64,000 nt of DNA from assembly GCA_000092065.1 (NCBI GenBank), contig CP000586.1; one strand, 5' to 3'. A program made the translations under genes and the position numbers. The notes beneath the pieces were generated by a model, which was not told the origin of the DNA, made no database searches, and saw only the letters and a list, made by a program, of their open reading frames with translations. The stretch is from Ostreococcus lucimarinus. Its lineage: Eukaryota. Shown in pieces: positions 10,641 through 50,077 of this stretch. Every line of letters starts with the position of its first letter. Position 1 is the stretch's first letter.

Positions 10641-10739
10641 CGCGGTTGCTCGCGTTCGTTCGCGGCGGCCTTTGAATCACCTCGTCCTCCCCGAGCGCGC
10701 CGATCGGTCCGCACCGCGCCGCACCGCGGGCGCGCCGTC

Positions 10740-10880
10740 CGTCGGTTCGGCACGCCGCCGCCTCGCGTTCGTCCTCGCGTCGCGTCGGCGCGTTCGAGGT
10801 CGCGTCGCGTCGGCGCGGTCGTCCTCGCGTCGCGTCGGCGCGGTCGACCTCGCGTCGCGTCGTTCGCCGTCGTCGTCTCG
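10740..10880. repeat. Tandem ~22-24-bp GC-rich repeat (consensus ~GTCCTCGCGTCGCGTCGGCGCG, ~4 copies) in the divergent intergenic region between RPC8 and the cyclase gene
   Basis: Read directly: cgttcgtcctcgcgtcgcgtcggcgcgttcgaggtcgcgtcgcgtcggcgcggtcgtcctcgcgtcgcgtcggcgcggtcgacctcgcgtcgcgtcg. Confidence 0.7.
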
Positions 10881-11216
10881 CCCGCGTCGGCGTCGCGGTG
10901 TGCCATCCAACCGCGACGGGCGCCGACGCGCCGATGCGCCGATGCGCGCGACGACGGCCATCGCAATCGAACGCGAATGCGACTGCGTCAGAAGACGTCG
11001 GTGCGCGCGACGTCCCGTCGGACGGGACGCGCGACGCGTGGGATGGCGCCGACGCGACGACGCGGACGCCGACGCGGCGCGGGCGACGACGCGCGCGACG
11101 ACGACGCGGATGGGTGCGATTTCAGTCGACGGTTGGCGCGAGGCGCGACGACGACGACGAAATTGAAGACGAACGCGGTGACGAATGCGCGACGACGACG
11201 CGCGCGTGGACGCGGT

Positions 11217-14200
11217 ATGGCGTGGAGGGTGGTAGCGGTGATAACGTGCGCGACGTCGTGGACGTGGGCGACGGTGTCGGCGAACGCCGTGACGTTGATC
11301 GGCGCCGGCGCGTCCTTTCCGGCGAGCGTGTACGGAGAGGCGATGAGCGCGTACGCGCAGGCGACGGCGAACGTGACGGTGACGTATAACTCATTTGGAA
11401 GTGGAAGTGGATTGTGTCGAATACAAAACGCCAGCGTGGAGTGTACGGATAGTAAAGGCGTGGACGAGGTAGATTTCGCGTGCAGTGACGCGTTGTTGAA
11501 TGATACGGCGTACGCGGCGTACCCCGATTTACAGATGTACCCCGTCATCGCAGGAGCGGTGGCGTTGGTGTACAATCTCCCAGACTCTACGTATAGCGGC
11601 ACGGCGACGGTGCTTAAATTCCTTAAATTCGACGCCAACGCCTTGTTGGGGGTGTTTTTGGGAAATATCACGCGTTGGAACGACGCCGCGATAACGGCGT
11701 TGAATCCGACGATGACGCTTCCGAACGAGTTGATCAAAATAGTGGTGCGTCAAGACAGTTCTGGGACGACGGAGGCTTGGACAAGTGCTTTATCGACGAT
11801 GAATGCATCTTTTGCGAGCGGGGTGGGGACGTCAAAGCTACCCGACTGGTCCGCGGTGTTGTCGAGTTACGTGACGAGATCTCAAGGGATCGGTGTCACG
11901 TCCTACGTCAAGGCGACGAATTACTCGTTGGGCTATGCCGTTTTGGCTGACGCAAACGCGGTGAACGCATCCATCGCTGGTTACGTTCACGCAGGCACCT
12001 CAACAGCGGTGCTCCCAAACTCTGCGTCGATTTTGCAAGCCGTGAAGACGCGAGGATTGCAATTTGGCAACAACGGCGACAACCCGGTGCGCCTGACGGC
12101 CACCATCGCTCCGGTGCTCACGAATGCTTTAGCTTGGCCGTTTACGACGTACTCGTACGTCGTATTGCGGACTGGTATGGTTGGCTTCACGGAGAGCGAT
12201 CGATTACGAGCCGGGGCGTCTTGTGAAAACGTGAAGCAGACAGTGGCGTTCTGGAACTGGTTTCTCACGAGCGCACAATCGTCGCGAATCGCCGAACAAC
12301 ATGGCTTTGCTGCGATGCACGACGAAATAGGCGCGCTTGTGTCTGCAAGACTCATCGCAGATGTCTATTGTCAAGGGACTCGCGTCGCGGCTGTGACAAC
12401 ATCAACCACTGTACAGGCTATACAGGTCGGAGTCACTGCTCCAGTCACACTCAATAGGCTTCTGTACTCGTTACGCGCCCTGTACGAAGCGTACAATTCG
12501 AGCTCAACGCTCGCCATTAGAGAACTGACCACTGCGGAGGGCGCACTGGCAAATATCCTTGCCGATAACGGTATGGCGATTGGGATTGATTTGGTTGGCA
12601 CTCCTCTCGCCGCTCTATCAAGGCTACCGTTGTTCTCGATTGAGGCACGAATGGGACTGAATAAAGGTGTTCTTCAATTAGGAGCGACAGGGACGACTCT
12701 GGCGCTCGACTCTGTGGCCGTCGCGGCAATTTTAAGCGGCGACGCCACGACGTGGGGGCATCCCGAAATAGTGCGCTTGAACACCTTTTTAAACGGGGTA
12801 ACGGCACCAATCGTCTTGGCTGGCATTCTCGATCCCGAAGCAAATGCATTCTATCGCACTTACCTTTCACAACTGGTCACTGCAAACGCTTCTTTTACGT
12901 TGGCTACACCGAGCTTTCGTGGGTTGTCATATTCTGAAGTCGCTGCTTTTGTTGTTGAAACTCCAAGCTCGATCGCTTTTCTTCCTGGAGACGTAGTGAA
13001 TGCTTTTAAGCCTTATCTGTCGTCGTCGAGCGCGTTGAGTAACCTCGCGGCTACCCAAATGGATGTGTATTACAAACCAGTCAATAGCGGCGCAGAGTGT
13101 GGGGGGGCAATGCGCCAGGCGCTCAAATCCATGCTCAGCATGTTAGAATGGATGGCTTCCGACACCGATGTACAAGGTATTATTACAGAAGCTGGTGTGA
13201 CGCCATCGTTTGCCTCATCACCGGCTGTGCTGCAGACATTTTTATCGAATGTGCGAAGCGTGACGTGCAACGGCGTCTCCATTCTGAATCCACAAAATGC
13301 GCAGTCGTCGGCTGCGTTGAGTGTGAGTCCACTGATAATGGCCCTATCTGTTGGCCTTGGGTTGTTGACGTTCGCGATGTTCGCATTCTTTGGAGGGGCA
13401 CTGCTGAAAAGTTTATTTGTCCAGACAATTTTGAATCAATACAAGCGCTCGCATCCTCCAACCGATGCGGAAGTCACAATCGTCGTCACAGACGTCCAAG
13501 CTTCGACGCAGCTTTGGCAAAAAGCTTCGGTTCACATGAATCGGGCTCTTGCAATACACGACAAAATAATGCGGGCGGCGATTCATCAAACATTTGGTTA
13601 TGAGGTTTTGACGGAAGGAGACAGTTTTGTCATCGCGTTCCACTCTGCAGGAGATGCGCTCAAGTTCGCGATGCTGGTTCAAGAGCGCATGCAAAACTAC
13701 GCCTGGGACTCACCGCTCATTAGAGTGTGTAATGAAGTCTACGACGCGTACGACGCAGAAATCTTCGAGCAAGCTACACAAGGTCGCAACTTTAAGGCAA
13801 AGGAACTTTTACTCAACGCCGTTTCGAGTCGTAGAGTGATTCAAGAAGACACCATGTACGACGAAGGCGACGTGAGTACTCATGCTGGTAGAGGACAAAT
13901 GAATGCGTTTAGAGTTCCTCTCGGGGCGAAGGCTAGTCCCTTGAGTGAAATTCCTAAGATTCACGGTCTTCGCGTACGTATCGGCATGCATACCGGATTC
14001 TGTCAGAGCAGAACGCATCCCACGACGCGACGACGAGAATACTACAAGGGGGCCGTGACGATTGCCAGCGCCGTCTCCGATTGTGCCACTGGTGGTCAGA
14101 CTGTGATTTCAGGGGAAACAATGGCGGCGATACTAGGTGAGATCAAAGAAACGTCCCGAGCTTTCCATGCGCTTCACATGGGACGCCATCAAATGGGGTT

Positions 14201-16226
14201 GAACGCCAAAGAGCTGGATTTGACGGAGGCTGTCGACGAGAGAACCGTGCAAGTTGACGGCAAGGTTGGGCTGGACGACTCGTCAGCGCCTACTGACGAC
14301 GTCACGTTTGCGCTGACCACGGATAGCACAAGACTAAGATGGCGTGCGTCCGATTCTGAAACATCGACAGAGGAAGGCTCGTTGGAAGTGAACCCGGCGT
14401 ACCGCTACGCGCAAAACGCGAAAGTCTCAATCATAAAGAAGGTGGCTTACGATAAAATACACCAGACGAGTCTATTCCAGTCCGAGCTGGTGCAAGCCGT
14501 GCCGAAGTCGCTTGCAACTCGTTTGGCGTTATTCTCTAATCTGCGCACTGTGCGTCAATTGGAGCCATCTTATTATGATTCGCCAGGACTGAACGATATG
14601 AAAGTCACCATCGTTTTCACGTACATCGAAGGTTTGAAGGAACTCAGCGTGGCATTAAAGGACGTGATGGAAGACTCCGTGGGTCTTCTAAATGCGGCTG
14701 TGCGCGCCACGCTACCAGTTTTTAACGGTTACGAGTCTAGAGAATCAAATGGCGAATTTTTGCTCGCTTTCCACTCGCCCAATGATGCGTACAAATGGGC
14801 TCTTCTTGCTCAAAGCGCGTTCATGAAGCTCGACTGGCCGAAAAAACTGTTGACGCATCGGAGCGCGAGACGCATGCGCAATGGAAGACGCGACGTATTC
14901 TTTGGACTCCGCGTGGGGATGGGTGTATGTTCTGGTAAGTGTGCCGACATCAGACCATGTATCCGCACCGGACGCTCCGAGTATTTCGGTGCAATCTTGA
15001 ATTTTGCGTCGAGGGTTGCACGCAGCGCCAAAGGTGGGCAAATTTTAACAGATTATGAAACCTTGAAATCGGCCATTCAAAACGATTATGTGGTTGAATT
15101 TTGTCACGATCTAGGAATGTACCAATTTAAGGGCATCGACAACACCGTACGAGTCATTCAAGTCTCCGACGCGTCGCTGATGATGCGTTCTTTTGAGGAA
15201 ATTGACGCAATCCAAGTCGCACCGCCGGTTGGATTGGATGAAGATCGCGATTTAAGGTCGCAAACACGGAGTGACGATCGTTCAAGTGTATGTATTTTGT
15301 TGTGTACGGCTAAATCACCACTGATAAAGATTGTGCAGTCGTTGGTGCGAGCCATTCGTAAAGAGATACAAGTCGTCAGTGCGCAGAGGATCGACGACGT
15401 CGTCAGTCAATTAAGACATCGTAATTCAGCTGGCCTCATTCATAACCACATGGTGATTGTTTCTGATGAGATCGAACGTTTAGACGTCGTGGATGCTTGC
15501 CGACAAATCCGCAGAAAACTCAACTTGTTTATGCAGCCGAGGCTCGCAGTGTACGCTTCACTCCTAAACGATCTCGACGCTGAACAGCTCGGCATTGACT
15601 GCCTTTTGCCTACTTTGGATGCACCTTTTGACGCTAGTTCATCCCGCAATTCATATGTCGATGGTGATAGTGATTCGGAGTACGAAGAAGATATGATTGC
15701 GTTCAAACAAGTGGTTGAATCTTTCCTTTTGGGAGAAGCGAGCGAGAGTGGCTTGGGCGTCTTGCAAAGGCTGTCAGAATCAGGCGGTATTGCATCAGCA
15801 CCGACTCTTGAAGCGAATCAAAACGATGAGAAACTACCAACGTTCAAACAAGCGCCCGTGCCAACTCATAACAAGCCGCTTTTGAGCATGTCCAACATTG
15901 GGATGTTGACTACGACGCTTGAGGCGGTTTGCGCAAGAGCTTTCGCAATCGACGTGAATCAACAGCTCATATTTGCTACGCGCCGCGCCGTGAAGGCTGG
16001 TGTGGGCGCTTCTTCGGGACCACTTCCGCCATCAGACTGGCTATCTCGAGTAAGTACTGTCGCTGCGAAGGCGCAAAGGGGTATACTCCGTCAGTCTTGG
16101 GTTGAAACGATAAAAGGCAGTTGGCTCGACGAAAATTCAGAGGACGAATACGTCGACGCCGTGCACAAACCGATTCGTCTCGGCGATGATTTCGCAGTTG
16201 TTTTAGTGACTTTGCAAAGTCGTTGA
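11217..16226 (+). CDS. Receptor-type nucleotidyl cyclase. Layout: signal peptide, extracellular PstS-like phosphate-binding (type II PBP) domain plus a second degenerate PBP-like region, one TM helix, cyclase homology domain 1, cyclase homology domain 2, degenerate receiver-like domain (~1669 aa)
   Basis: ORF 10341..16226(+). Upstream of ATG 11217 is GC artefact overlapping RPC8. MAWRVVAVITCATSWTWATVSA is signal-peptide-like. PstS hallmarks: GAGASFPASVY…VTYNSFGSGSGL…VDFACSD…, ITRWNDAAITALNP, IKIVVRQDSSGTTEAWT, WPFTTYSYVVL. TM helix PLIMALSVGLGLLTFAMFAFFGGALL. CHD1: TIVVTDVQASTQLW…GYEVLTEGDSFVIAFHS (both metal-binding Asp present; the Asn/Arg pair is absent from the aligned GAVTIASAV segment). 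CHD2: KVTIVFTYIEGL…ESNGEFLLAFHS…RVGMGVCSGKC…SEYFGAILNFASRVARSAKGGQILTD (Asn/Arg present, metal Asp residues replaced). Receiver-like: CILLCTAKSPLIKIVQSLVRAIRKEIQVV…HMVIVSDEIERLDVVDACRQIRRKL…LLPTLDAPF. Confidence 0.8.
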   Translation: MAWRVVAVITCATSWTWATVSANAVTLIGAGASFPASVYGEAMSAYAQATANVTVTYNSFGSGSGLCRIQNASVECTDSKGVDEVDFACSDALLNDTAYAAYPDLQMYPVIAGAVALVYNLPDSTYSGTATVLKFLKFDANALLGVFLGNITRWNDAAITALNPTMTLPNELIKIVVRQDSSGTTEAWTSALSTMNASFASGVGTSKLPDWSAVLSSYVTRSQGIGVTSYVKATNYSLGYAVLADANAVNASIAGYVHAGTSTAVLPNSASILQAVKTRGLQFGNNGDNPVRLTATIAPVLTNALAWPFTTYSYVVLRTGMVGFTESDRLRAGASCENVKQTVAFWNWFLTSAQSSRIAEQHGFAAMHDEIGALVSARLIADVYCQGTRVAAVTTSTTVQAIQVGVTAPVTLNRLLYSLRALYEAYNSSSTLAIRELTTAEGALANILADNGMAIGIDLVGTPLAALSRLPLFSIEARMGLNKGVLQLGATGTTLALDSVAVAAILSGDATTWGHPEIVRLNTFLNGVTAPIVLAGILDPEANAFYRTYLSQLVTANASFTLATPSFRGLSYSEVAAFVVETPSSIAFLPGDVVNAFKPYLSSSSALSNLAATQMDVYYKPVNSGAECGGAMRQALKSMLSMLEWMASDTDVQGIITEAGVTPSFASSPAVLQTFLSNVRSVTCNGVSILNPQNAQSSAALSVSPLIMALSVGLGLLTFAMFAFFGGALLKSLFVQTILNQYKRSHPPTDAEVTIVVTDVQASTQLWQKASVHMNRALAIHDKIMRAAIHQTFGYEVLTEGDSFVIAFHSAGDALKFAMLVQERMQNYAWDSPLIRVCNEVYDAYDAEIFEQATQGRNFKAKELLLNAVSSRRVIQEDTMYDEGDVSTHAGRGQMNAFRVPLGAKASPLSEIPKIHGLRVRIGMHTGFCQSRTHPTTRRREYYKGAVTIASAVSDCATGGQTVISGETMAAILGEIKETSRAFHALHMGRHQMGLNAKELDLTEAVDERTVQVDGKVGLDDSSAPTDDVTFALTTDSTRLRWRASDSETSTEEGSLEVNPAYRYAQNAKVSIIKKVAYDKIHQTSLFQSELVQAVPKSLATRLALFSNLRTVRQLEPSYYDSPGLNDMKVTIVFTYIEGLKELSVALKDVMEDSVGLLNAAVRATLPVFNGYESRESNGEFLLAFHSPNDAYKWALLAQSAFMKLDWPKKLLTHRSARRMRNGRRDVFFGLRVGMGVCSGKCADIRPCIRTGRSEYFGAILNFASRVARSAKGGQILTDYETLKSAIQNDYVVEFCHDLGMYQFKGIDNTVRVIQVSDASLMMRSFEEIDAIQVAPPVGLDEDRDLRSQTRSDDRSSVCILLCTAKSPLIKIVQSLVRAIRKEIQVVSAQRIDDVVSQLRHRNSAGLIHNHMVIVSDEIERLDVVDACRQIRRKLNLFMQPRLAVYASLLNDLDAEQLGIDCLLPTLDAPFDASSSRNSYVDGDSDSEYEEDMIAFKQVVESFLLGEASESGLGVLQRLSESGGIASAPTLEANQNDEKLPTFKQAPVPTHNKPLLSMSNIGMLTTTLEAVCARAFAIDVNQQLIFATRRAVKAGVGASSGPLPPSDWLSRVSTVAAKAQRGILRQSWVETIKGSWLDENSEDEYVDAVHKPIRLGDDFAVVLVTLQSR

Positions 16227-20246: not shown

Positions 20247-20540
20247 CTAGGAAAACGCCCACCGCGCGAAGAAGACGAAGACGAAGACCAAGCACACGAC
20301 TTGCCAAAAATATCCCTGCCTTCTCGCCTGCTCCACGACCTGCGCGAACGCGCGCGCGCTTTCTCTCAGAGCGTCTCTCGCTCGCGCGAAGTCATCGCTC
20401 TGTTCGTCGAGCATTCTTCGCTGCGCGCCGACTTCGTCGTGAATGTCGATGGTGATGTTCTTCAGCGCCGACGCGCGTTCGCTCACGCGGTCGATGTCTC
20501 GATCGTTTTCGCGCTCCATCGCGCGCGTCGCGGCGTGCAT
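20247..20540 (-). CDS. Tail-anchored Qc-SNARE of the Bet1/SFT1 type (~97 aa from MHAAT...). It may extend 5' into the Asp/Thr-rich low-complexity region up to 20810
   Basis: SNARE heptad region ENDRDIDRVSERASALKNITIDIHDEVGAQRRMLDEQSDDFARARDALRESARAFAQV, followed by a single C-terminal TM helix (YFWQVVCLVFVFVFFARWAF) and the stop. The layout matches Bet1/Sft1. Confidence 0.6.
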   Translation of the reverse strand: MHAATRAMERENDRDIDRVSERASALKNITIDIHDEVGAQRRMLDEQSDDFARARDALRESARAFAQVVEQARRQGYFWQVVCLVFVFVFFARWAFS

Positions 20541-20890
20541 CGCGCGTCGGCGACCGCGCTCTGTCGCCGTCGTCGTCGCGTCGTCGTCAGTCGCGTCGTC
20601 GTCGGTCGTCGTCCATCGTCGTCGTCGTCCATCGTCGTCGTCGTCCAGCGTCCATCGCGCATCGTTCGCGTCGTTCGCGTCGCGCGTCGTTCGCGTCCGT
20701 CGCGCGACCTCGCGATCGATTCGCGCGCGTTCCGTCGTCCACCGCGCGCGCGTCGCACCTCTCGCGCGTCCGCGCGCGTCGTCGCGCGTCGCGACGTGCC
20801 GCTCGACCAACGGCTGCGGGACGACGGAACGCGACGCGCGATGCGCTGACGCCGACGCGCGAGAGGTGCGACGCGCGACGCGCTCGAACG

Positions 20891-23569
20891 ATGGCGATGA
20901 TACCGGTCGACGACGCCCTGGCGATCGCGCTCGATGTCGTCGCGCGTGGCGCGCGCGCGACGACGACGAAGACTCGAGTGGAGCGCAGCGCGAACCGCGT
21001 GTCGGCCGAGGACGTGCGCGCGACGACGCCGCATCCCGCGTTCGCGGCGAGCGTCATGGATGGGTACGCGCTGAACGCGCGCGCGAGCGCGGCGGCGATG
21101 CGGGCGAACGACGACGGTGGGGCGACGCGACGATGGGAGTTTGAGATTGTCGACGACGAGGCGTCGCGGGCGGGACCGGCGAAGGCGACGCGCGACGACG
21201 AAGGACGCGAATTTGGCGCCATGGAGTGTGCGTACGTCACCACGGGCGCGGTGTTACCTCGAGGATGTGATTGCGTCGTGCCGGAGGAAGCGTGCGAGGT
21301 GGTGAGGGAGGGATCTGGACGCGCGCGCGCGGACTCGAGCGACGTCGTTTCGGGAAAGTGGACGCGCGCCGTCGGGAGCGACGTGCGAGGCCGAGGGGAA
21401 GTTTTGATCGCGAAAGGTGAACGGTTGAGCGCGTATGATGTTGGCGTGCTAAAGTACGCTCGGGATGTCGTTGAGACGTACGAGCCTCCGCGCGTTCGCG
21501 TTTTGAGCACGGGCGATGAGTTGGCGGCGAGTGCGAGCGACGTCGCCGTTCGCGGATGCGTCGTGGACACAAACGGTCCGATGTTGGAAGCGCTGTGCGG
21601 TGAAGAGGGCGCAGAAGTAATATCGCGCGATATAGTGCGAGACGACGAGGCTGCGACGAGGGCAGCGTTCGAAATGGCCGTCGCCGACGCTTCGTGCGAC
21701 GCGCTCATCACCTCTGGCGGCGCCTCGGTGGGTGACAGAGATTTCGTGAAACAGACGATCGAAGGTCTCGGTGGGAAGATTTACTTTAGACGTTTGGCGA
21801 TGAAACCGGGGAAGCCGACGATGTTCGCGACGATTCCTAGAGCGACGGGTCCGCCACTTCTCGTATTCGCACTGCCGGGCAATCCTGTCAGCGCGGCGGT
21901 GACGTTTACGCTCATCGTCGCGCCGTGCATTCGCGCGCTCGGTGGAGTTCGCGAATCTGGACTTCGGCGCATCCATTGCGTATTAGATGAGACGTTACGT
22001 CTCGACCCAGAGCGCGCTGAGTATCATCGCGTCACACTAGATTGGACGCGGGGGAACTTACCCGTCGCGCGCTCCACTGGCGCGCAAATCAGTAGCCGCT
22101 TACTGTCCATGCGAAACGCGGACGCGCTAATCGAGCTTCCGCGAGGACCAGGGGTGGTGGAAAAAGGCGCCATCGCGAGTGCGCTGTTGATTTCAGATGT
22201 AAGACACGCGAAAGGTGCGAACATGGAGAAAATACAATGGCCCAAAAAGTCACGCGGCGACGAGAGTCGGCGTTCGAACGAGGCGCTCGACTCCATCGTG
22301 ACCGTGCTCGACGCCGAGGGATCCGTCCGGGATTTGAAACGCGTCGTAGGGCTTGAAGAAGACGCGAGGCGTCATTGCCGTGCCGCCGGAGATTGCGTGG
22401 ACGCGCTTAATGAACTGAGGATGTATTCAGATGGCGATTCCACGCACGTTGCGGTGACAGACGCGCAGTCGCCAGGATTACGAAGAGGAATCGCAACAAC
22501 TTTGGAACGACTGCGCGTCGTCACGCCGATTGGCGACGTTATCACTAAACGCGCGTATGCCCGCGTGGGTTTAGTTGGGAATCCGTCCGATGCATACGGA
22601 GGCAAGTGTGTGGCGTTTACCATTTCAAACTTTTTCGCTGAAGCGTCGCTACGCCGAACGCCATCATCGAAGCGCGTAACGTTCGCGCCGGGCCCGTACG
22701 ACGGAAACGCGTTCGATTCATTCGACGCCTTGTCGACGCACGTATCCCAACACGGTGTCGATGGTGGTGTGCGTCTACTTAAGTCGCTATGTTGCAACCT
22801 CATGCGATATTGCGAGTCGACAAAGCAGAGAATCGATACGTCATGTGGCTTTGAGATGTCATACACGTCGAACATCCCGAAACAAACCGGCTTGAGCGGT
22901 TCGAGCGCCATCGTCATCGCCGCGATGAGATGTCTTCTCGAAATGTATAGAATCAACATTTCGTTGGATGATCAGACCGAGCTGGCTTTACGCGTCGAGC
23001 GCGATGTCGGCATCAACGCCGGACCGATGGATAGAGTCGCGCAGGTGTATGAAGGCGCGGTGTTTATGGATTTCACAAAACCGCGCGCGTCAACAGCATG
23101 CGGTTGGCGCATTCACGGTGAATACACGCGCGTGGAGACGGATGAATTGCCTCCTTTGTATCTCGTGTGGGCCAAAGACAACGAGAGTGAGAGCTCTCGA
23201 ATTCACGCCGACGTTCGGCGTCGATGGGACGCTGGAGACGCGGATGTCGCAACGTCGATGTCGCGCCTCGCGTCGCTCGCCGACGACGTATTCAAAGCTA
23301 TGGCAACGCGACAAATCAACGTCGAAGAACTCAAAACGTCGATCGACACGAACTTTGATATTCGTCGAGCGCTTTTCGGTGATCAAGCGATCGGCGCGTT
23401 GAATGTAACACTCGTCTCGGTGTGTCGCGAACGCGCGGGTTGTGCGGCAAAGTTTGCCGGCAGCGGTGGCGCTTGCGTCGTCGTTTGCGAAAACGACAGA
23501 GCGCGCGCTTTAAAGGAAGCGTGCGACGCGCACGGGTTCGAAGTCGAACGCGTCGTCGTGCGAAAGTAA
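20891..23569 (+). CDS. Single 892-aa ORF encoding a complete MoeA/gephyrin-E-type molybdopterin molybdenumtransferase (aa 1 to ~440) followed, after a ~70-aa linker, by a complete GHMP-family glucuronokinase (aa ~510-892)
   Basis: MoeA: MIPVDDALAIAL…SVMDGYAL…, SGGASVGDRDFV, LAMKPGKPTMFA, LPGNPVSAAVTF, MoeA_C beta-barrel (HRVTLDWTRGNLPVARSTGAQISSRLLSMRNADALIELPRG). Glucuronokinase: RAYARVGLVGNPSDAYGGKCVAFTISNF, GGVRLLKSLCCNLMRYC, SNIPKQTGLSGSSAIVIAAMRCLLEMY, GPMDRVAQVYEGAVFMDF, NFDIRRALFGDQAIG, KFAGSGGACVVVC (near-collinear with plant GlcAK). There is no in-frame stop between the two halves. An in-frame ATG (MYSDGD) lies 38 codons before the kinase core. Confidence 0.75.
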   Translation: MAMIPVDDALAIALDVVARGARATTTKTRVERSANRVSAEDVRATTPHPAFAASVMDGYALNARASAAAMRANDDGGATRRWEFEIVDDEASRAGPAKATRDDEGREFGAMECAYVTTGAVLPRGCDCVVPEEACEVVREGSGRARADSSDVVSGKWTRAVGSDVRGRGEVLIAKGERLSAYDVGVLKYARDVVETYEPPRVRVLSTGDELAASASDVAVRGCVVDTNGPMLEALCGEEGAEVISRDIVRDDEAATRAAFEMAVADASCDALITSGGASVGDRDFVKQTIEGLGGKIYFRRLAMKPGKPTMFATIPRATGPPLLVFALPGNPVSAAVTFTLIVAPCIRALGGVRESGLRRIHCVLDETLRLDPERAEYHRVTLDWTRGNLPVARSTGAQISSRLLSMRNADALIELPRGPGVVEKGAIASALLISDVRHAKGANMEKIQWPKKSRGDESRRSNEALDSIVTVLDAEGSVRDLKRVVGLEEDARRHCRAAGDCVDALNELRMYSDGDSTHVAVTDAQSPGLRRGIATTLERLRVVTPIGDVITKRAYARVGLVGNPSDAYGGKCVAFTISNFFAEASLRRTPSSKRVTFAPGPYDGNAFDSFDALSTHVSQHGVDGGVRLLKSLCCNLMRYCESTKQRIDTSCGFEMSYTSNIPKQTGLSGSSAIVIAAMRCLLEMYRINISLDDQTELALRVERDVGINAGPMDRVAQVYEGAVFMDFTKPRASTACGWRIHGEYTRVETDELPPLYLVWAKDNESESSRIHADVRRRWDAGDADVATSMSRLASLADDVFKAMATRQINVEELKTSIDTNFDIRRALFGDQAIGALNVTLVSVCRERAGCAAKFAGSGGACVVVCENDRARALKEACDAHGFEVERVVVRK

Positions 23570-23641: not shown

Positions 23642-25270
23642 CTACATGGATACGTGCGCGGCGATGCCCACTTGAAACCCGTCGCTGACGCGATCGTTTG
23701 TCCCCGCGCGCACGACTTTGCCGTAATTCATTTCGATCTGACCGATCGGCAACGGCCAAACAATGCCAACGCCCAAAGACGCGCGCGTGGCGTCGCGAAC
23801 AACCTTGATCGCGTCTTTCGGCGCCCCTGACAGAGCGGCGAGCGGTAAGAGCGTCCCGGCGGTCGCAAACGCGTGGAAATGAATCCCAGCCTCCCTCATG
23901 GCTTCAAATTTCTCTCCCGGAATATCCATCTGCAACGCAGCCGTGGCGCTCCACACGAAATCGCCTCCTAAAGCGTCTCTCGTGAGCGACGGTTCTCCAT
24001 CTTCGGCGCTCGACGGCGTCTTTGCGCCCGGTGATTCCTCCGCCGCTGCGGTCTTTTTCGTTCCACGACGCGCGTCACTCGGGCCAACGCCGTTATTTTC
24101 GAACTGGCGCAGACACCCGACGCCACCTAAGAAGAATCTATCCGCAATGCACGTCCTACTGTCACCATCGTTGCCAGATTTCCCCCACGGAAATAACACG
24201 CCAAAGCGCCCAGACGCCGACGCCGTGATACCGCGCGACGCGTCCAACGTCTCAACGACGTGCGCGCTGACTTCAGACTTAACGAACTTTGCCGCGAGCG
24301 CGTTATCCATAAACCCGATGCCCGCTAACTCGGACCGAATCTTCCACAAATAGCCCGACGTCGGCCTCACCTGTCTGTCGAGGCGGTCGGAGACGTACGT
24401 GTGCGTCACCGCCGACTTGAGCGAGTGTCCGAGCTGACGTCGAACTTCCCGGCTAGCCATGCGCGTTGGATCTTGAACATCTCGCCACGCGATTTCGTAA
24501 TCCACCGTTCCCGGTCCGTCACCCGCGACGCCCACGCGAATGCCCCTCGACGTCACGTCGAATGAGCTCAACTTTTTAAAGCACTCGACGGACTGAAAAG
24601 CGCGCGCGTCCAAATTTACGTCGCTCCCGTAAAGTTTTGGTTGTTCCCACGCCGCAGAGTACGTCGAGCTCGAATTCTGCCCCTTGATGAGTTCGACCTC
24701 AAACTTTTCCCCGTACCCGAGCGGGTTGCGCAGCCCAAACGTCGCCTCCGCCTCGCCCTCGCCGCGTTTGCTCACGTACGTTCCGACTTTAAAATGAAAC
24801 GCGTCTTTTTCCTCCACGCTCACCACCACCTTCGCCCCCGGCACGTCCCCACCGTCCAACCGTCCTCCCTCGTGATCCGCATCGATCACGATCGCGACGT
24901 CTTTAAATATCCCGTATTCATACAGCCTCGCGTTCGCCGCGAAGAGCGCGTCCTTGATCCCGTCCAGCGTCCTCGCCTCGTACGCCCTCGCCAACTCTCG
25001 TTCGATCACCGACGCTCGCGTCCGTTCGTTTCCTCGTATCTCGATCGACGACACCGCGCACGCGTCATCGCGCACTCGGTCGTACCGCGCTCGGAATTCA
25101 TTCACCGGCGGCGTCGACGTCGTCGCCCCCGCGTCCGCCGACGCCGAGGATTCCGCCGACGCCGAGGATTCCGCCGCGTCCGCCGCGTCCGACGTCGCGT
25201 CGCGTCGTTCGCCTCGCGCCGTGAAGCTCGCGTCGTCGTCGCGCGCGTCCGTCGTCGTCGTCGTCGCCAT
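23642..25270 (-). CDS. Omp85-family outer-membrane beta-barrel protein with one POTRA domain (SAM50-like / Toc75-V-like), ~543 aa from MATTTTTD...
   Basis: POTRA-like SSIEIRGNERTRASVIERELARA…, Bac_surface_Ag/D15 region including FFLGGVGCLRQFENNGVGP, and alternating amphipathic beta-strands to the C-terminus. ORF 23642..25858(-), with the 5' part an R/S-rich artefact. Confidence 0.75.
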   Translation of the reverse strand: MATTTTTDARDDDASFTARGERRDATSDAADAAESSASAESSASADAGATTSTPPVNEFRARYDRVRDDACAVSSIEIRGNERTRASVIERELARAYEARTLDGIKDALFAANARLYEYGIFKDVAIVIDADHEGGRLDGGDVPGAKVVVSVEEKDAFHFKVGTYVSKRGEGEAEATFGLRNPLGYGEKFEVELIKGQNSSSTYSAAWEQPKLYGSDVNLDARAFQSVECFKKLSSFDVTSRGIRVGVAGDGPGTVDYEIAWRDVQDPTRMASREVRRQLGHSLKSAVTHTYVSDRLDRQVRPTSGYLWKIRSELAGIGFMDNALAAKFVKSEVSAHVVETLDASRGITASASGRFGVLFPWGKSGNDGDSRTCIADRFFLGGVGCLRQFENNGVGPSDARRGTKKTAAAEESPGAKTPSSAEDGEPSLTRDALGGDFVWSATAALQMDIPGEKFEAMREAGIHFHAFATAGTLLPLAALSGAPKDAIKVVRDATRASLGVGIVWPLPIGQIEMNYGKVVRAGTNDRVSDGFQVGIAAHVSM

Positions 25271-26094
25271 CGCGTCGTCGTCGTCGTCGTCTGCGGTGAC
25301 GAAGTCGACGCATCCATCCGGCCGGCGATCCCATCCCAGCCATCGTCCGCTCGAGTCCCCCTCGCGACGGTTCACGACTCGTCCGCGTCGACGCCCGTTC
25401 GCCCGCGCGTCACTGCGCGACGCGACGCGACGCGACGGACGACGGACGACGGACGACGGACGACGCGCGAGCGCGCGAGCGACGAACGGTGAACGACCGC
25501 GGTGCGACGCGCGACGCGACGCGACGCGAGGACGCGACGCGAGGACGCGCGCGACGGATGATTCGGATTCGCATTCAAAAGGGGAACGGCTGTCGAACGA
25601 CGACCGACGACGACGACGACCGACGACGACGACTGACGAAGACACCGACATCGCGCGCGCGACGGGGTGAAATAGGACGAGGATACATGTTTCGCAGACG
25701 AGAGACGGCGGGTGGGATGGCGACGCCGACGGCGTTGCGGACGGCGACGAACGACGACGGGGACGAAGCGCGGACGCCGACGCCGCTGAGAAGCGCGTTG
25801 AAGAAGGGTGCGAGACGCGACGCGACGCGACGCGATGCGATGGGTGAGGGATGGGCAATGCATGCGCGACGATGATCTATCGATGACGCGCGACTGACGG
25901 ATGGGCGAACGCGCGCAGGTGGATTGAGTAAAGCTCGCGTCGTCGTGGAGAGCGACGGGTTCAAGTATAAAAAACGCAAGAGCGCGAAGGGCGCGCTGGG
26001 GGTGACTATTTCGGAGCCGCTTTGGGCGATCGAACGGGCGTCTTCGCGCGCGTTGGTGGTGGGAGCGACGACGACGTCTTCGAACGGCGCGCAC

Positions 26095-46702: not shown

Positions 46703-49700
46703 TTAAATTTGAGGCAAAGCGATGTCGGCGATGTCATCACTGGAGACAAAGCGGATGTTGGCCCAATCACCGGCAGCAGCGGTAGACTTCGTGCGCTCAA
46801 GCGCGGCGATACCCGCATCACCGTCTTCGAGCACGGACGGAGTGGATGCGTTGACATCGAGGCGCTGGCGAGAAATCATAATGATATCACCGATTTGCCA
46901 GTCGCCGGGAGATGGAGCTGGCGTGGAGACGTCTTCTACCCAATAACCGAGACCTAAGACGTCAAGACTGGTGGAATCTTGCACGATCTGCTTAGGATTG
47001 ATTGGTTTTGGTTTCTCCGGTGAGGATTCCTCGGTGTAGACGGGTTTGTAAACAATCATCGTCGTCGCCGTGGCATCGGACTCTGCGTTGGACACCGGCG
47101 TCTCAAGCCGTTTTGGCGCCGAAAGGCAGCAGGAGAGAAAACCCGTCGGGTTTCTGTACGGGGTTTTCTGCACGGGAGCGTGCGACGCCATCGGCATCAC
47201 AGCTTGCGTCGTCGCCGGCGGCATCGGCATCACTGCCGCCGCAACTGGTGAAGGCTTGTCGGCGGGCACGGGTTCCGAAGGTTTTTGTGTGTGAGAGGCG
47301 ACGTAAGTTTCTAGAACGGTTTCATCCGGTTTGTCCGCGAGCATCACTTTGCCCTTCTTGCCGTTTCGCAAGTTTAAAACTTCGTAAGTGCCGGCCCAGT
47401 TCGACCCGTCGCACTTCCCACAGTTTAGCGCACGTACGGCGTCTTTATCGAAACGGAAAATCGAGCCATCGGACGGATAACCGTGTCGCCGAATGTCGAG
47501 AACATTGATGGCGGTGGACGTGCCGAGAATATTGGCGTGAATACCGCCGCCAGAGCGCGCCGTCGAGTTCGCGAGCTTGTGCAAGTCCGTTGATTCCCAT
47601 CGCACACGCACGGCGGACACATCATCCATGATCGACTTGAACGCCCGTCCCCAGCGAACGTTTTCTGTACTGAGCTCTATTTTATGCCACTTTCCATCCG
47701 AACGCAGCGCTTTCGCCGTGAACGGAAGAGCTTCGAACGACGCATCCGTGTGAACGCCGTAAATTCGTGTCCCCACGCTCGCGGCTTCAATCTGAAATTC
47801 AATCTCCAGTTCTTTCCACCACGGACCGACAAGACCGCATTGACCATACCGAATTAAATGCCCGGGTAAGTTCCAACCAGTTTCCGTCTGGCACACGTAG
47901 TTGTCCATCGACAGCGTGAATGTGTACGGCGGAGGTTGGTTGTCATGCGAATACGCCAACAACTCGATGCGATCGCCCGGCTTCCAATCCCCTTCGTGGG
48001 CGTAATCGCAAGGATTCGCGCAACCGACGCCGATGCCCGACTCGTGCTGAAACACTATGACGCTCCCACGTCGTTCGCCCGCGCTCGTGTCGTTGGGGAT
48101 CGCGAATGAGGCGCCATCGCCGCCTTTTATGACGCCCGTCTTCCAGCCTTCGTAACTCGCATCGCCCCAATCTTCAATGCCCGTGATGGCAGAGAGCTGC
48201 GAGCTCTTGAAGCGAAACCACTTCCCTTTAGGCTCTGGCTCTGTTTTGCCGGGCATGACACCGCCGGGGTAATCGATGCTCACGACATCAAGGTGTGGAT
48301 CGACGAGCTTTCTTCGTTGTCGAGGGAACACAAACGCATCGGGCTTCAGCTTTACGACTTTCTTCTCACCCGACGCCGTTTTGTACGTCCGCTCTTTCGG
48401 GGGCGGTGGTTTTTTGTGAGGATTGTACACGTAAAACTCGTCACGCTCCTGCGCGTTTGGCCCACTGATGGATTTGTCGCCCCATTTTGATGCGTCATCA
48501 ACGCACTCTTCGCCGCGGTTGCCTTCGTCCTTGGTTGGCCACTTGTTAGACCCCCAACCAACCCCGAGCAAGTCAGGATCACCCTCGAGTAAGCCGACGT
48601 GAACACCGCCGCCGTACTTTTCACTGTAGCACGGCACCCCGGGGGCGCCTTTGTCAGGCACACGAACATTAAACTTAAAGTGAGTGATAGGTTCGTACTT
48701 TCTGTCGCGATGCAGCATGAGAGCTCCGAAATGTTGCTTGTTTTTATCATCCGTGCACAGTCCACTTCGAAAAGAAGGTTGACCTTCACCTTGACTGTTA
48801 ATGCCCTCGTTGTCGCGGCAGTTGTATGTCTGACAACAACCACCCGCTTGCAGGAGCGTTCGATTATCGATGAAGACGCCGATTGGAGTGTACGGACGCC
48901 CGTTGATCAACTCGGGGTCTGATCCGGTGGGATGCTTCAGCTTGATCTCGAACATGAGCCACATCGTACGCTTGCCTCCTCGGTAATTTTGCTCTTTCGG
49001 GTAAATTCCACTTTGGCCAGGGAATATTCGCTCGATTGGCTCGTCGTTGACGCCGCCCGTCATGAAGTGGGCGTCGTCGTCTTTGGAGTAGTCTTCAACA
49101 AACTTGATCGAATCGAATTTGCTCGGATCCATGAATCGCACACCCTTCGGCAAGCCACGGTACGCGATGAGTTCGATGGGCTCGCCGACGAGCCAGTCGC
49201 CCGGCTGCGCGCTCTCGACGGGGTGATAACAGCCCACGCCCATGCCGTTTGGACCGCCAAAAACGACGATCGCCGAACGCTTTTCTTGTCGATACACACA
49301 GAAAGTCGCGCCTTTCCCCGATTTGACGCTAAAATTTTCTGTTTTGTACGCCTTCAGATCCTTATTCGCCCACTCGTGTCCGATGACGCGCGTGAGCTCA
49401 TCCATGTCGAAGCGAAAGAATCTCCCATCCGCCGGCTTGGATTTGTCCGGATACTCCAACGACGTGACGTGTACGTACTTCCGATCGGGAACTTCATCAG
49501 GAAACACGACAACATCACCCTCATCAACTTTTGAAAGCCCTTGGTCGACCGTCGATCCGTTCGGTTTCACGTCTGGAATCGTCCCGAGCGCCGGCGCCCT
49601 CCCGTCCCCCGCGAGTCCAAAGCTCAACGTTTTCGACAACTGCCTGAGCATCGACGGTTGCTTTTTAAACACGTGCACGTTATGTTCCACCACCACCACC

Positions 49701-50077
49701 GTCGTTTTCAGCGCCGCAGCCTTCATTCGCGCCGCCACCGTGCCGTCCAGCAGCGCTCCCGGTTTCAACCGCTTCGCCGCATCCACGAAGCGTTCGACGA
49801 GCGCGTACAGCCCCGTGTTGCTCGAGCACGTCGACGCGAAGTCCTCCAGCGTCACCCGTCGATCGCACGGTTCGGTGTGATTGATCGCGATCCACGCTTC
49901 GATCGCCGCTTTCTCGTACGTCCGTCCCGTCTTCGCGACGACGACGGGATTCTTCATCACTCGCAGCGTGAGCGCGCACACGTACGCGTCCGGCGCCGCG
50001 GCGTGGAACGCGGGATCGGCGTACATCGCGGCGTCGACGTCGATGTCGCGAGGGAACGGGTTCGCGCGTCGGCCCAT
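46703..50077 (-). CDS. U-box domain protein (1124 aa). It has an N-terminal U-box followed by at least three copies of a novel ~100-150-aa module (…FRF…G[IM]GVGC…GDW.[VP]G[ED].IEL[IL]AY…)
   Basis: U-box: PDAYVCALTLRVMKNPVVVAKTGRTYEKAAIEAWIA (compare CHIP/PUB U-boxes). Repeats: DGRFFRFDMDE…SAIVVFGGPNGMGVGCYHPVESAQPGDWLVGEPIELIAY; KWFRFKSSQ…GSVIVFQHESGIGVGCANPCDYAHEGDWKPGDRIELLAY; DGSIFRFDKDA…; C-terminal SPGDWQIGDIIMIS. ATG verified at 50077. Confidence 0.7.
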   Translation of the reverse strand: MGRRANPFPRDIDVDAAMYADPAFHAAAPDAYVCALTLRVMKNPVVVAKTGRTYEKAAIEAWIAINHTEPCDRRVTLEDFASTCSSNTGLYALVERFVDAAKRLKPGALLDGTVAARMKAAALKTTVVVVEHNVHVFKKQPSMLRQLSKTLSFGLAGDGRAPALGTIPDVKPNGSTVDQGLSKVDEGDVVVFPDEVPDRKYVHVTSLEYPDKSKPADGRFFRFDMDELTRVIGHEWANKDLKAYKTENFSVKSGKGATFCVYRQEKRSAIVVFGGPNGMGVGCYHPVESAQPGDWLVGEPIELIAYRGLPKGVRFMDPSKFDSIKFVEDYSKDDDAHFMTGGVNDEPIERIFPGQSGIYPKEQNYRGGKRTMWLMFEIKLKHPTGSDPELINGRPYTPIGVFIDNRTLLQAGGCCQTYNCRDNEGINSQGEGQPSFRSGLCTDDKNKQHFGALMLHRDRKYEPITHFKFNVRVPDKGAPGVPCYSEKYGGGVHVGLLEGDPDLLGVGWGSNKWPTKDEGNRGEECVDDASKWGDKSISGPNAQERDEFYVYNPHKKPPPPKERTYKTASGEKKVVKLKPDAFVFPRQRRKLVDPHLDVVSIDYPGGVMPGKTEPEPKGKWFRFKSSQLSAITGIEDWGDASYEGWKTGVIKGGDGASFAIPNDTSAGERRGSVIVFQHESGIGVGCANPCDYAHEGDWKPGDRIELLAYSHDNQPPPYTFTLSMDNYVCQTETGWNLPGHLIRYGQCGLVGPWWKELEIEFQIEAASVGTRIYGVHTDASFEALPFTAKALRSDGKWHKIELSTENVRWGRAFKSIMDDVSAVRVRWESTDLHKLANSTARSGGGIHANILGTSTAINVLDIRRHGYPSDGSIFRFDKDAVRALNCGKCDGSNWAGTYEVLNLRNGKKGKVMLADKPDETVLETYVASHTQKPSEPVPADKPSPVAAAVMPMPPATTQAVMPMASHAPVQKTPYRNPTGFLSCCLSAPKRLETPVSNAESDATATTMIVYKPVYTEESSPEKPKPINPKQIVQDSTSLDVLGLGYWVEDVSTPAPSPGDWQIGDIIMISRQRLDVNASTPSVLEDGDAGIAALERTKSTAAAGDWANIRFVSSDDIADIALPQI

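What the first reader, a model, noticed from the sequence alone, without database searches (positions are those of the whole stretch)
20891..23569. MoeA (molybdopterin molybdenumtransferase) and glucuronokinase encoded in one uninterrupted 892-codon ORF
Both halves are complete and individually convincing: MoeA domains I-IV including MoeA_C, and a GHMP glucuronokinase collinear with plant GlcAK. They share one frame with no stop, joined by a ~70-aa linker that is noticeably less GC-rich than its surroundings. Gephyrin/CNX1 fuses MoeA with MogA, but a MoeA-GHMP sugar-kinase fusion is not an architecture I know. The alternatives are a genuine bifunctional protein; two genes whose boundary is hidden by an intron (a GTAAGA donor-like site sits exactly after the MoeA_C end at ~22197); or a gene-model or assembly fusion.
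Basis: partly seen in the sequence, partly recalled or inferred. Interest (0 to 1): 0.55.

Follow-up and report, generated by a model that had tools for sequence, protein, structure and literature searches.

The report
Molybdenum insertase fused to glucuronokinase
In the tiny marine green alga Ostreococcus and its relatives, the enzyme that puts molybdenum into its cofactor and a sugar kinase are made as one conserved protein, joined by a small extra domain found nowhere else; the fusion is real and uncommented in the papers searched, but I found no sign that the two activities cooperate.

Summary
The 892-codon ORF at 20891-23569 (+) exists exactly as reported. Residues 1-436 are a complete Cnx1E/MoeA molybdenum insertase with all four Mg-site residues. 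Residues 550-891 align end to end with plant and algal glucuronokinases (42-43% identity).

The window is Ostreococcus lucimarinus. The same uninterrupted fusion occurs in 18 protein clusters at 49-55% identity. These include the annotated single-exon O. tauri gene XP_003079619.1/Q017Z7 and loci I take to be Micromonas-like and Bathycoccus-like. Most sit next to the tubulin cofactor D gene.

The "linker" is not a spacer. It is a disordered stretch of about 31 residues, then a conserved, confidently folded 75-residue domain seen only in this family.

The GTAAGA "donor" encodes Val-Arg after an invariant Asp, occurs at chance frequency and is absent from orthologues. The internal Met is not conserved. 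Only the coding frame stays open across lineages. So the intron, two-gene and assembly-artefact readings are rejected on comparative grounds.

No transcript or peptide evidence could be obtained. The architecture is already in public annotation but was not mentioned in any paper I could search.

My verdict is a genuine, ancient Mamiellales gene fusion with unknown functional coupling and modest interest.

The parts
20891..23569 (+). Whole fusion ORF: 892 codons plus stop, single exon
   Evidence: Listed. The exact protein is on two independent Logan contigs. Orthologous single ORFs are in L003, L004, L006 and L008-L011.
20891..22198 (+). Molybdenum insertase E domain (Cnx1E/MoeA type), aa 1-436. 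MoeA_N is 20900-21451, MoCF_biosynth 21500-21934, MoeA_C 21983-22186.
   Evidence: Pfam hits. Aligns with 5g2r Cnx1E at E 2.8e-66 over aa 3-436. T207, E210, D251 and D284 correspond to the Cnx1E Mg-site residues T198, E201, D242 and D274 (PMC6954367) and are invariant in 13 orthologues.
22199..22291 (+). Flexible linker, aa 437-467.
   Evidence: AlphaFold pLDDT is 38-62. Identity to orthologues is 29%, but R438, K447 and P451 are invariant. GTAAGA occurs at chance frequency and is not conserved in orthologues.
22292..22516 (+). Conserved small domain, aa 468-542, with beta-beta-alpha-beta-beta-alpha order and the motif LKRxVGLEExxRRxCR. It is restricted to this fusion family.
22421..22423 (+).
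   Evidence: It lies inside strand 3 of the small domain. It is Val, Ile or Ala in three orthologue groups.
22535..23566 (+). GHMP sugar-1-kinase module of the glucuronokinase family, aa 549-892. GHMP_kinases_N is 22817-23056, GHMP_kinases_C 23411-23533.
   Evidence: Pfam hits. 42% identity end to end with Citrus glucuronokinase 1 and 43% with the stand-alone Cymbomonas protein. The best non-fusion hits are named glucuronokinases. The motifs GNPSD (563-567), PKQTGLSGSS (663-672) and KFAGSGGA (854-861) are conserved.

Best explanation
This is a genuine single-exon fusion gene of Ostreococcus lucimarinus. It is shared by the order Mamiellales and most likely yields one polypeptide of about 96 kDa with three folded parts.

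1. An N-terminal Cnx1E/MoeA-type molybdenum insertase. It hydrolyses adenylated molybdopterin in a Mg-dependent step and inserts molybdate to make the molybdenum cofactor.
2. After a disordered tether of about 31 residues, a lineage-specific 75-residue alpha/beta domain of unknown role.
3. A C-terminal GHMP kinase orthologous to plant glucuronokinase (ATP + D-glucuronate gives glucuronate-1-phosphate).

Both catalytic modules keep their signature residues, so each probably works on its own. The G (MogA) domain that plants fuse to the E domain is encoded elsewhere in these algae.

Shown here: ORF continuity across lineages, domain identities, conservation and predicted fold of the middle region, and synteny. 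Inferred: translation as one chain, both enzyme activities, and origin by loss of the boundary between two neighbouring genes in a compact ancestral genome.
For: ORF and domains.

E domain: aligns in full with Cnx1E 5g2r. The Mg-site residues are conserved.

Kinase half: collinear with named glucuronokinases at 42-43% identity.

Conservation of the fusion: 18 clusters of 845-964 aa at 49-55% identity, all with both domain sets. One cluster holds O. tauri XP_003079619.1/CAL53264.1/Q017Z7, 899 aa. In the reference assembly that gene is one uninterrupted 2700-nt ORF next to TBCD, as in the window. Intact ORFs also occur in a 2.1-Mb Micromonas-like contig, in Bathycoccus-like contigs, and in Tara/JGI metagenome contigs almost identical to the window.

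Linker is coding: linker pN is 0.40-0.47 against saturated pS of 0.74-0.85. Only frame 0 is open in six lineages, with 1-10 stops in the other frames. The donor-like hexamer and the internal Met are not conserved.

Middle domain: predicted confidently in two independent runs.

Pathway context: Mamiellales have one CNX1E and a separate CNX1G (PMC2944026). The M. commoda E and G domains are separate proteins (PMC13262936).
Against: No transcript, transcription-start, polyA or peptide evidence was obtained. Logan contigs of about 3.3 kb carry the whole ORF, but they end in (GTC)n repeats without polyA, so they cannot be called mRNAs. Two O. tauri proteome supplements gave no hit for the accession.

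GHMP_kinases_C is below Pfam's cut-off in this protein. Scores are below NCBIfam's bacterial equivalog cut-offs.

The exact 892-aa product is not among NCBI's O. lucimarinus proteins, whereas a neighbouring gene's product is. The official gene model there may therefore differ.

No biochemical link between molybdenum insertion and glucuronate phosphorylation is known to me.
Confidence: 0.8

Rival explanations
1. One ORF but two products. An internal promoter or start site inside the ORF, or proteolytic cleavage in the disordered 437-467 tether, releases a free insertase and a free kinase. The fusion would then be only a shared reading frame.
For: The tether at 437-467 is predicted disordered and is poorly conserved. 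JGI gene calls of 663 aa named 'glucuronokinase' exist for this species. I have no transcript data.
Against: No start codon is conserved between the E domain and GHMP motif I. M511 is Ala in the Micromonas-like group, whose next shared Met (position 562) lies next to the GNPSD motif. The 75-residue middle domain is conserved and would serve no purpose in an untranslated leader. The shorter metagenome gene calls I inspected break at scattered positions, and the one compared with its full-length relative is a frameshift.
Confidence: 0.1
2. Functionally integrated fusion. The kinase module, the middle domain or both have been recruited to molybdenum-cofactor synthesis. For example, they might dock the separately encoded G-domain protein, or the kinase might act on a substrate other than glucuronate.
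For: The fusion is the only CNX1E counted in each Mamiellales genome and has been kept across genera. The middle domain sits exactly where the G domain begins in plant Cnx1. Its top Foldseek hits are all MoaB-family proteins. The M. commoda G domain has an unexplained N-terminal extension of about 150 residues.
Against: The kinase half is a typical orthologue of plant glucuronokinase along its whole length, with all GHMP motifs. The Foldseek hits are not significant (E 0.3-0.9, TM below 0.5). A profile-profile comparison with 54 Cnx1 G domains gives a probability of 0.3%. Glucuronokinase also fuses with other partners such as a nucleotidyltransferase domain (PF00483: P0304, P0309, P0315, P0325).
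Confidence: 0.08
3. Assembly or gene-model artefact. Two adjacent genes were joined by a sequencing or assembly error that removed a stop codon or a boundary.
For: None beyond the unusual domain pair. The exact 892-aa product is absent from the NCBI protein set.
Against: Identical or near-identical DNA was recovered from two independent SRA runs and from several Tara, JGI and ENA metagenome assemblies. The same fusion occurs in the O. tauri reference genome and in lineages with saturated synonymous divergence.
Confidence: 0.02

Closest known systems
Plant CNX1 / animal gephyrin (two-domain molybdenum insertases)
   Same: The N half is a full Cnx1E-type E domain: E 2.8e-66 to 5g2r, same four sub-domains, same Mg-site residues. 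As in plant CNX1, the E domain is N-terminal and is followed by a flexible tether and a further folded module. Most of the nearest non-fusion relatives have the E-then-G order.
   Different: There is no G (MogA) domain. The only PF00994 hit is domain III of MoeA, and the middle domain does not match G-domain profiles. The C-terminal partner is a GHMP sugar kinase instead. The G domain is reported as a separate gene in Mamiellales.
Arabidopsis/plant glucuronokinase (GlcAK, GHMP family; Pieslinger et al. 2010, PMC2823444)
   Same: Residues 550-891 are collinear with plant GlcAK1 at 42% identity and share GHMP motifs I-III. That paper already counted Micromonas and Ostreococcus sequences as GlcAK homologues.
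   Different: Plant and most algal GlcAKs are stand-alone proteins of about 340-380 aa, for example Cymbomonas at 345 aa. Here the kinase is the C-terminal third of an 892-aa protein and is preceded by a lineage-specific domain. Substrate specificity is untested.
Ostreococcus tauri XP_003079619.1 / CAL53264.1 / Q017Z7 ('Molybdenum cofactor biosynthesis, conserved site', 899 aa)
   Same: It is the orthologue: same domain order, 56% identity, single uninterrupted ORF, same TBCD neighbour.
   Different: It is a different species, and the annotation names only the molybdenum half. I found no functional study.
Other MoeA fusions in NCBIfam (MobB/MoeA PRK14491; archaeal MoeA + unknown domain PRK14497; PRK14498)
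   Same: They show that MoeA readily accepts C- or N-terminal partners. The window protein hits these models through its MoeA part.
   Different: The partners there are not GHMP kinases (MobB, or an unnamed domain). The matches do not reach the equivalog cut-offs.
Nucleotidyltransferase-glucuronokinase fusions in protists (PF00483 + PF00288; P0304, P0309, P0315, P0325)
   Same: They are another case of glucuronokinase as the C-terminal module of a larger protein.
   Different: That pairing would join consecutive steps of nucleotide-sugar salvage, which is my inference from the domain names. The MoeA pairing has no known pathway logic.

Membership tests
MoeA / Cnx1E molybdenum insertase E domain | Four-sub-domain architecture (MoeA_N I+II, MoCF_biosynth III, MoeA_C IV) over about 400-440 residues | tested here: met
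   All three Pfam models are above cut-off. The alignment to Cnx1E 5g2r covers aa 3-436.
MoeA / Cnx1E molybdenum insertase E domain | Active-site residues that hold the Mg-water complex (Cnx1E T198, E201, D242, D274) | tested here: met
   T207, E210, D251 and D284 align with them (residue list from PMC6954367). They are invariant in 13 orthologues, as are MKPGKP, PGNPVS and SSRLLSM.
MoeA / Cnx1E molybdenum insertase E domain | NCBIfam equivalog score for bacterial MoeA | tested here: not met
   251 bits against a cut-off of 440. This is expected for a eukaryotic homologue scored on bacterial models, so it does not argue against the family.
MoeA / Cnx1E molybdenum insertase E domain | MPT-AMP hydrolysis and molybdate insertion activity | not testable with these tools
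   Needs complementation or an in vitro Moco synthesis assay.
CNX1/gephyrin two-domain insertase (E + G) | A MogA-type G domain (second PF00994 domain with the GGTG motif) in the same chain | tested here: not met
   There is only one PF00994 hit, which is MoeA domain III. hhalign of the middle domain against 54 G domains gives a probability of 0.3%. The Foldseek MoaB hits are not significant.
Glucuronokinase (GHMP kinase, EC 2.7.1.43) | GHMP N-terminal domain with the phosphate-binding motif PxxxGLSGSSA | tested here: met
   PF00288 at 3.5e-15. IPKQTGLSGSSAIV at 662-675 has an invariant core.
Glucuronokinase (GHMP kinase, EC 2.7.1.43) | GHMP C-terminal domain | tested here: inconclusive
   PF08544 scores 19 bits against a 21-bit cut-off in this protein. 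Some orthologues have a recorded hit, and the region aligns fully with plant GlcAK.
Glucuronokinase (GHMP kinase, EC 2.7.1.43) | Full-length collinearity with characterised-family GlcAKs, closer than to other GHMP kinases | tested here: met
   42-43% identity over about 345 residues to named GlcAKs. By contrast, the matches to heptose, mevalonate and galactose kinases in the PDB and NCBIfam have E-values of only 1e-9 or weaker.
Glucuronokinase (GHMP kinase, EC 2.7.1.43) | Specific phosphorylation of D-glucuronate at C1 | not testable with these tools
   Needs an enzyme assay. No solved GlcAK structure was found for mapping the substrate pocket.

The most novel reading that the evidence does not exclude
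The conserved 75-residue middle domain is not an arbitrary insert. It could be the surviving N-terminal part of an ancestral Cnx1 G domain, or a docking module for the separately encoded G-domain protein. On this reading the Mamiellales insertase descends from an E-G enzyme whose G half was replaced by a sugar kinase, and the three-part protein is a functional assembly rather than a neutral fusion.
Probability: 0.15. Interest if true: 0.55.

Novelty: new variant of a known kind. Interest (0 to 1): 0.35.

Why it matters
Molybdenum insertases are studied for how their domains are arranged and why that differs between lineages: E-G in plants, G-E in animals and fungi, and separate genes in bacteria and in the green algae looked at so far.

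A 2026 survey of eukaryotic insertase organisation listed the Micromonas E-domain protein only as lacking a G domain. It did not mention a kinase.

If I am right that the single CNX1E counted per genome in ecologically dominant marine picoalgae is this gene, then their only E domain is permanently tied to a glucuronokinase and a family-specific domain. That adds a third kind of eukaryotic arrangement. It also offers a natural test of whether the partner of the E domain matters.

It is also a clean example of a gene fusion retained across genera in very compact genomes. If the two halves are functionally independent, the finding is mainly a note for annotation, since the O. tauri record names only the molybdenum half.

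Tried and rejected
1. Transcript evidence from Logan contigs. Contigs of 3.3-4.3 kb from five SRA runs carry the whole Micromonas-like ORF. However, they start in (GTC)n repeats and have no polyA, so they may be genomic. I did not use them.

2. Proteomics. Searching the supplements of two O. tauri proteome or phosphoproteome papers for Q017Z7, CAL53264, glucuronokinase and MoeA gave nothing usable.

3. The 'Tara' gene header in cluster 1. I judged it from memory to be a metagenomic gene-call format, not a transcript, so I did not count it.

4. A junction-centred protein search returned only one fragment.

6. A 28-residue match of the LKRxVGLEExxRR motif to phage T4 DNA alpha-glucosyltransferase (E 0.003). 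I treated it as probable chance.

7. Split gene calls in metagenomes (511+361 aa, 643+284 aa, 287+522+75 aa). The breaks fall at scattered positions. The one pair compared with its full-length relative is a frameshift, not a natural fission.

8. The afdb50 fold library was unavailable.

9. The Derelle 2006 genome paper on gene fusion in O. tauri is not held. The link to genome compaction therefore rests on my own recollection.

10. Whether NCBI's O. lucimarinus ABO96425 (cited as GlcAK in PMC2823444) is this locus could not be checked.
Full report
**Observation**

Pfam places these domains:
- MoeA_N at residues 4-187
- MoCF_biosynth at 204-348
- MoeA_C at 365-432
- GHMP_kinases_N at 643-722
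- GHMP_kinases_C at 841-881, a sub-threshold hit (19 bits against a cut-off of 21)

The N half aligns over residues 3-436 with the crystal-structure sequence of Arabidopsis Cnx1E (5g2r, E 2.8e-66) and ends at the same '...IVSD' as that construct. The C half, residues 550-891, aligns end to end with Citrus glucuronokinase 1 (42% identity, residues 35-368 of 383). It also aligns with a stand-alone 345-residue protein of the prasinophyte Cymbomonas at 43%. The best non-fusion database hits to this half are overwhelmingly named glucuronokinases. Other GHMP kinases match far more weakly. The core observation is therefore confirmed.

**Organism**

The window has 59.7% GC. One of its ORFs (46706-50077, minus strand) is identical to ABO96650.1/XP_001418357.1 of Ostreococcus lucimarinus CCE9901. 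The exact 892-residue fusion protein is found on two independent Logan assemblies. A variant with one extra residue lies on Tara, JGI and ENA marine metagenome contigs whose DNA differs from the window at two aligned positions.

**Is the fusion real?**

A search of 5.8 billion proteins returned 18 clusters of 845-964 residues. They are 49-55% identical to the query over essentially its full length, and all carry both the MoeA and GHMP Pfam domains. The next hits cover only the MoeA half.

One cluster contains the annotated O. tauri proteins XP_003079619.1/CAL53264.1/Q017Z7 and OUS48673.1, 899 residues. In the O. tauri reference assembly that gene is one uninterrupted 2700-nt ORF beside the tubulin cofactor D gene, the same neighbour as in the window.

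Intact ORFs with the same neighbour were also read in two further groups:
- a 2.1-Mb contig with 61% GC in the gene, which I take to be Micromonas-like
- contigs with 52% GC in the gene, which I take to be Bathycoccus-like

These genus assignments are inferences. Only O. tauri and O. lucimarinus are named by a source.

Between these lineages synonymous sites are saturated (pS 0.65-0.85). Non-synonymous divergence is 0.26-0.39 in the enzyme halves and 0.40-0.47 in the region between them. In six lineages the inter-domain DNA has no stop in the coding frame but 1-10 stops in each other frame. An assembly or gene-model artefact is thus excluded. A non-coding spacer that merely happens to be open is very unlikely.

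**The 'linker'**

A 13-sequence alignment shows invariant residues throughout 433-555: D436, R438, K447, P451, V470, L482, K483, R484, G487, E489, E490, R493, C496, S513, H519, L530, R540, I551 and R554.

AlphaFold2 on a 77-sequence alignment gives mean pLDDT 87.8. The low-confidence stretches between the two enzyme halves are 452-466 and 543-547 (pLDDT below 50), within a poorly predicted tether spanning about 437-467. Between them lies a confidently folded unit at 468-542 with beta-beta-alpha-beta-beta-alpha order.

The same fold is recovered from an 11-sequence alignment of that region alone (pLDDT 84, pTM 0.71). MAFFT had not aligned any G-domain sequence to it in the large alignment, so the prediction is not borrowed from G domains.

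So the region is a tether of about 31 residues plus a 75-residue domain, not a 70-residue spacer. Its GC (0.569) lies between that of the MoeA part (0.643) and the kinase part (0.555). There is a 5'-to-3' decline, not a local dip.

**Intron and second-start ideas**

GTAAGA lies at 22199-22204 and encodes V437-R438 directly after D436. D436 and R438 are invariant. Orthologues read TTT CGT, TTA CGA, ATG CGT or TTG CGA there, with no GT. The hexamer occurs 11 times in the window against 12.9 expected by chance.

The 'MYSDGD' methionine (M511, 22421-22423) lies inside a strand of the small domain. It is Val, Ile or Ala in three orthologue groups. In the Micromonas-like group no Met is shared with Ostreococcus anywhere between the E domain and the GNPSD motif.

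Split gene calls exist in some metagenome assemblies. They break at scattered positions, and the one pair compared with its full-length relative is a frameshift.

**What each part most likely does**

The Cnx1E residues that position the catalytic Mg-water complex are T198, E201, D242 and D274, and a D274E change abolishes MPT-AMP hydrolysis (PMC6954367). They correspond to T207, E210, D251 and D284 here. All four are invariant in the family, as are MKPGKP, PGNPVS and SSRLLSM.

The kinase half keeps GNPSD, PKQTGLSGSS, MDRV and KFxGSGG. Both modules therefore look catalytically competent. This is an inference from sequence.

A published inventory counts one CNX1E and, except in O. tauri, one separate CNX1G in each of four Mamiellales genomes (PMC2944026). 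A 2026 survey lists the M. commoda E and G domains as separate proteins, the G protein with an N-terminal extension of about 150 residues (PMC13262936). The kinase therefore does not simply replace the G domain.

I know of no metabolic link between molybdenum insertion and glucuronate salvage. Glucuronokinase also occurs fused to a nucleotidyltransferase domain in other protists, so it is a promiscuous fusion partner.

The simplest account is fusion of two neighbouring genes in the compact genome of a Mamiellales ancestor, since retained. Cymbomonas, outside the order, has a stand-alone kinase.

**The middle domain**

Foldseek's best hits are all MoaB/MoaB2 proteins, relatives of the G domain (24-37% identity over about 64 columns, probability 0.75-0.89). 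But their E-values are 0.3-0.9 and TM is below 0.5.

The domain sits where the G domain starts in E-G type relatives: SRLLSM, then about 65 residues, then about 75-80 residues up to the GGTG motif. That makes a degenerate G-domain remnant an attractive idea. However, a profile-profile comparison with 54 Cnx1 G domains gives only 0.3% probability. I keep it as a low-probability reading.

A 28-residue motif match to T4 DNA alpha-glucosyltransferase (E 0.003) is probably chance.

**Comparison with what is known, and novelty**

The protein is an orthologue of an already deposited, automatically annotated O. tauri protein, so the sequence architecture is not new to databases. In the searchable literature:
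- no paper combines MoeA, GHMP and fusion
- the glucuronokinase cloning paper used Micromonas and Ostreococcus homologues without the word 'fusion'
- the recent insertase surveys do not mention a kinase partner

Relative to known kinds, it is a new variant of the multi-domain molybdenum insertase theme. It has a canonical E domain whose covalent partner is a sugar kinase plus a family-specific domain, instead of the G domain.

**Limits**

I could not obtain transcript, transcription-start or peptide evidence. The exact 892-residue product is not in NCBI's O. lucimarinus protein set, so the official model at this locus may differ.

The conclusion that one polypeptide is made rests on comparative evidence. 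That evidence is strong for a continuous coding region but does not exclude additional internal transcripts or post-translational cleavage in the disordered tether.

Noticed in passing
window 10341-16226 (+): A very long ORF (1961 aa; gene calls of 1627-1659 aa) combines a periplasmic-binding-protein-like domain (PBP_like_2) with an adenylate/guanylate cyclase catalytic domain. The same gene lies beside TBCD in the window, in near-identical Tara/JGI metagenome contigs, and in the Micromonas-like and Bathycoccus-like loci. It could be a ligand-gated cyclase.
   Followed up: partly
window 23642-25858 (-): An Omp85/POTRA protein (Toc75- or Sam50-like, 738-aa ORF) converges on the fusion gene. The two stop codons are only 72 bp apart, so the 3' UTRs must overlap or be extremely short.
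   Followed up: partly
window 20247-20810 (-): A small ORF sits between TBCD and the fusion gene. It has an Asp/Arg/Thr-rich low-complexity N part and a hydrophobic C-terminal segment (gene calls of 90-171 aa). It has no Pfam hit. A small gene occupies this position in O. tauri as well, and the Micromonas-like locus has small genes there too.
   Followed up: partly
window 20891-23569 (+): There is a marked GC gradient inside the ORF, from about 0.72-0.73 at the 5' end to about 0.50-0.55 in the kinase half. GC3 is 0.71 in the MoeA part and 0.61 in the kinase part. This could reflect different histories of the two halves or a GC-rich divergent promoter region.
   Followed up: no
window 22334-22393 (aa 482-501): The invariant motif LKRxVGLEExxRRxCR of the middle domain matches a 28-residue segment of phage T4 DNA alpha-glucosyltransferase (1xv5, E 0.003) in a profile search of PDB sequences. 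This is probably coincidence.
   Followed up: partly
L013-L016, first ~30 bases: Contigs from different SRA runs that carry the Micromonas-like orthologue begin in a (GTC)n microsatellite about 520-560 nt upstream of the start codon. A 90-aa upstream ORF is called in all of them and in the 2.1-Mb genomic contig.
   Followed up: no
protein clusters (P0164/P0165, P0146/P0148, P0139/P0147/P0140, P0126): Many metagenome gene calls of this family are truncated or split and are then named 'glucuronokinase' or 'mevalonate kinase' by IMG, while full-length ones are named 'molybdenum cofactor synthesis domain-containing protein'. The automatic name therefore depends on which half survives.
   Followed up: yes
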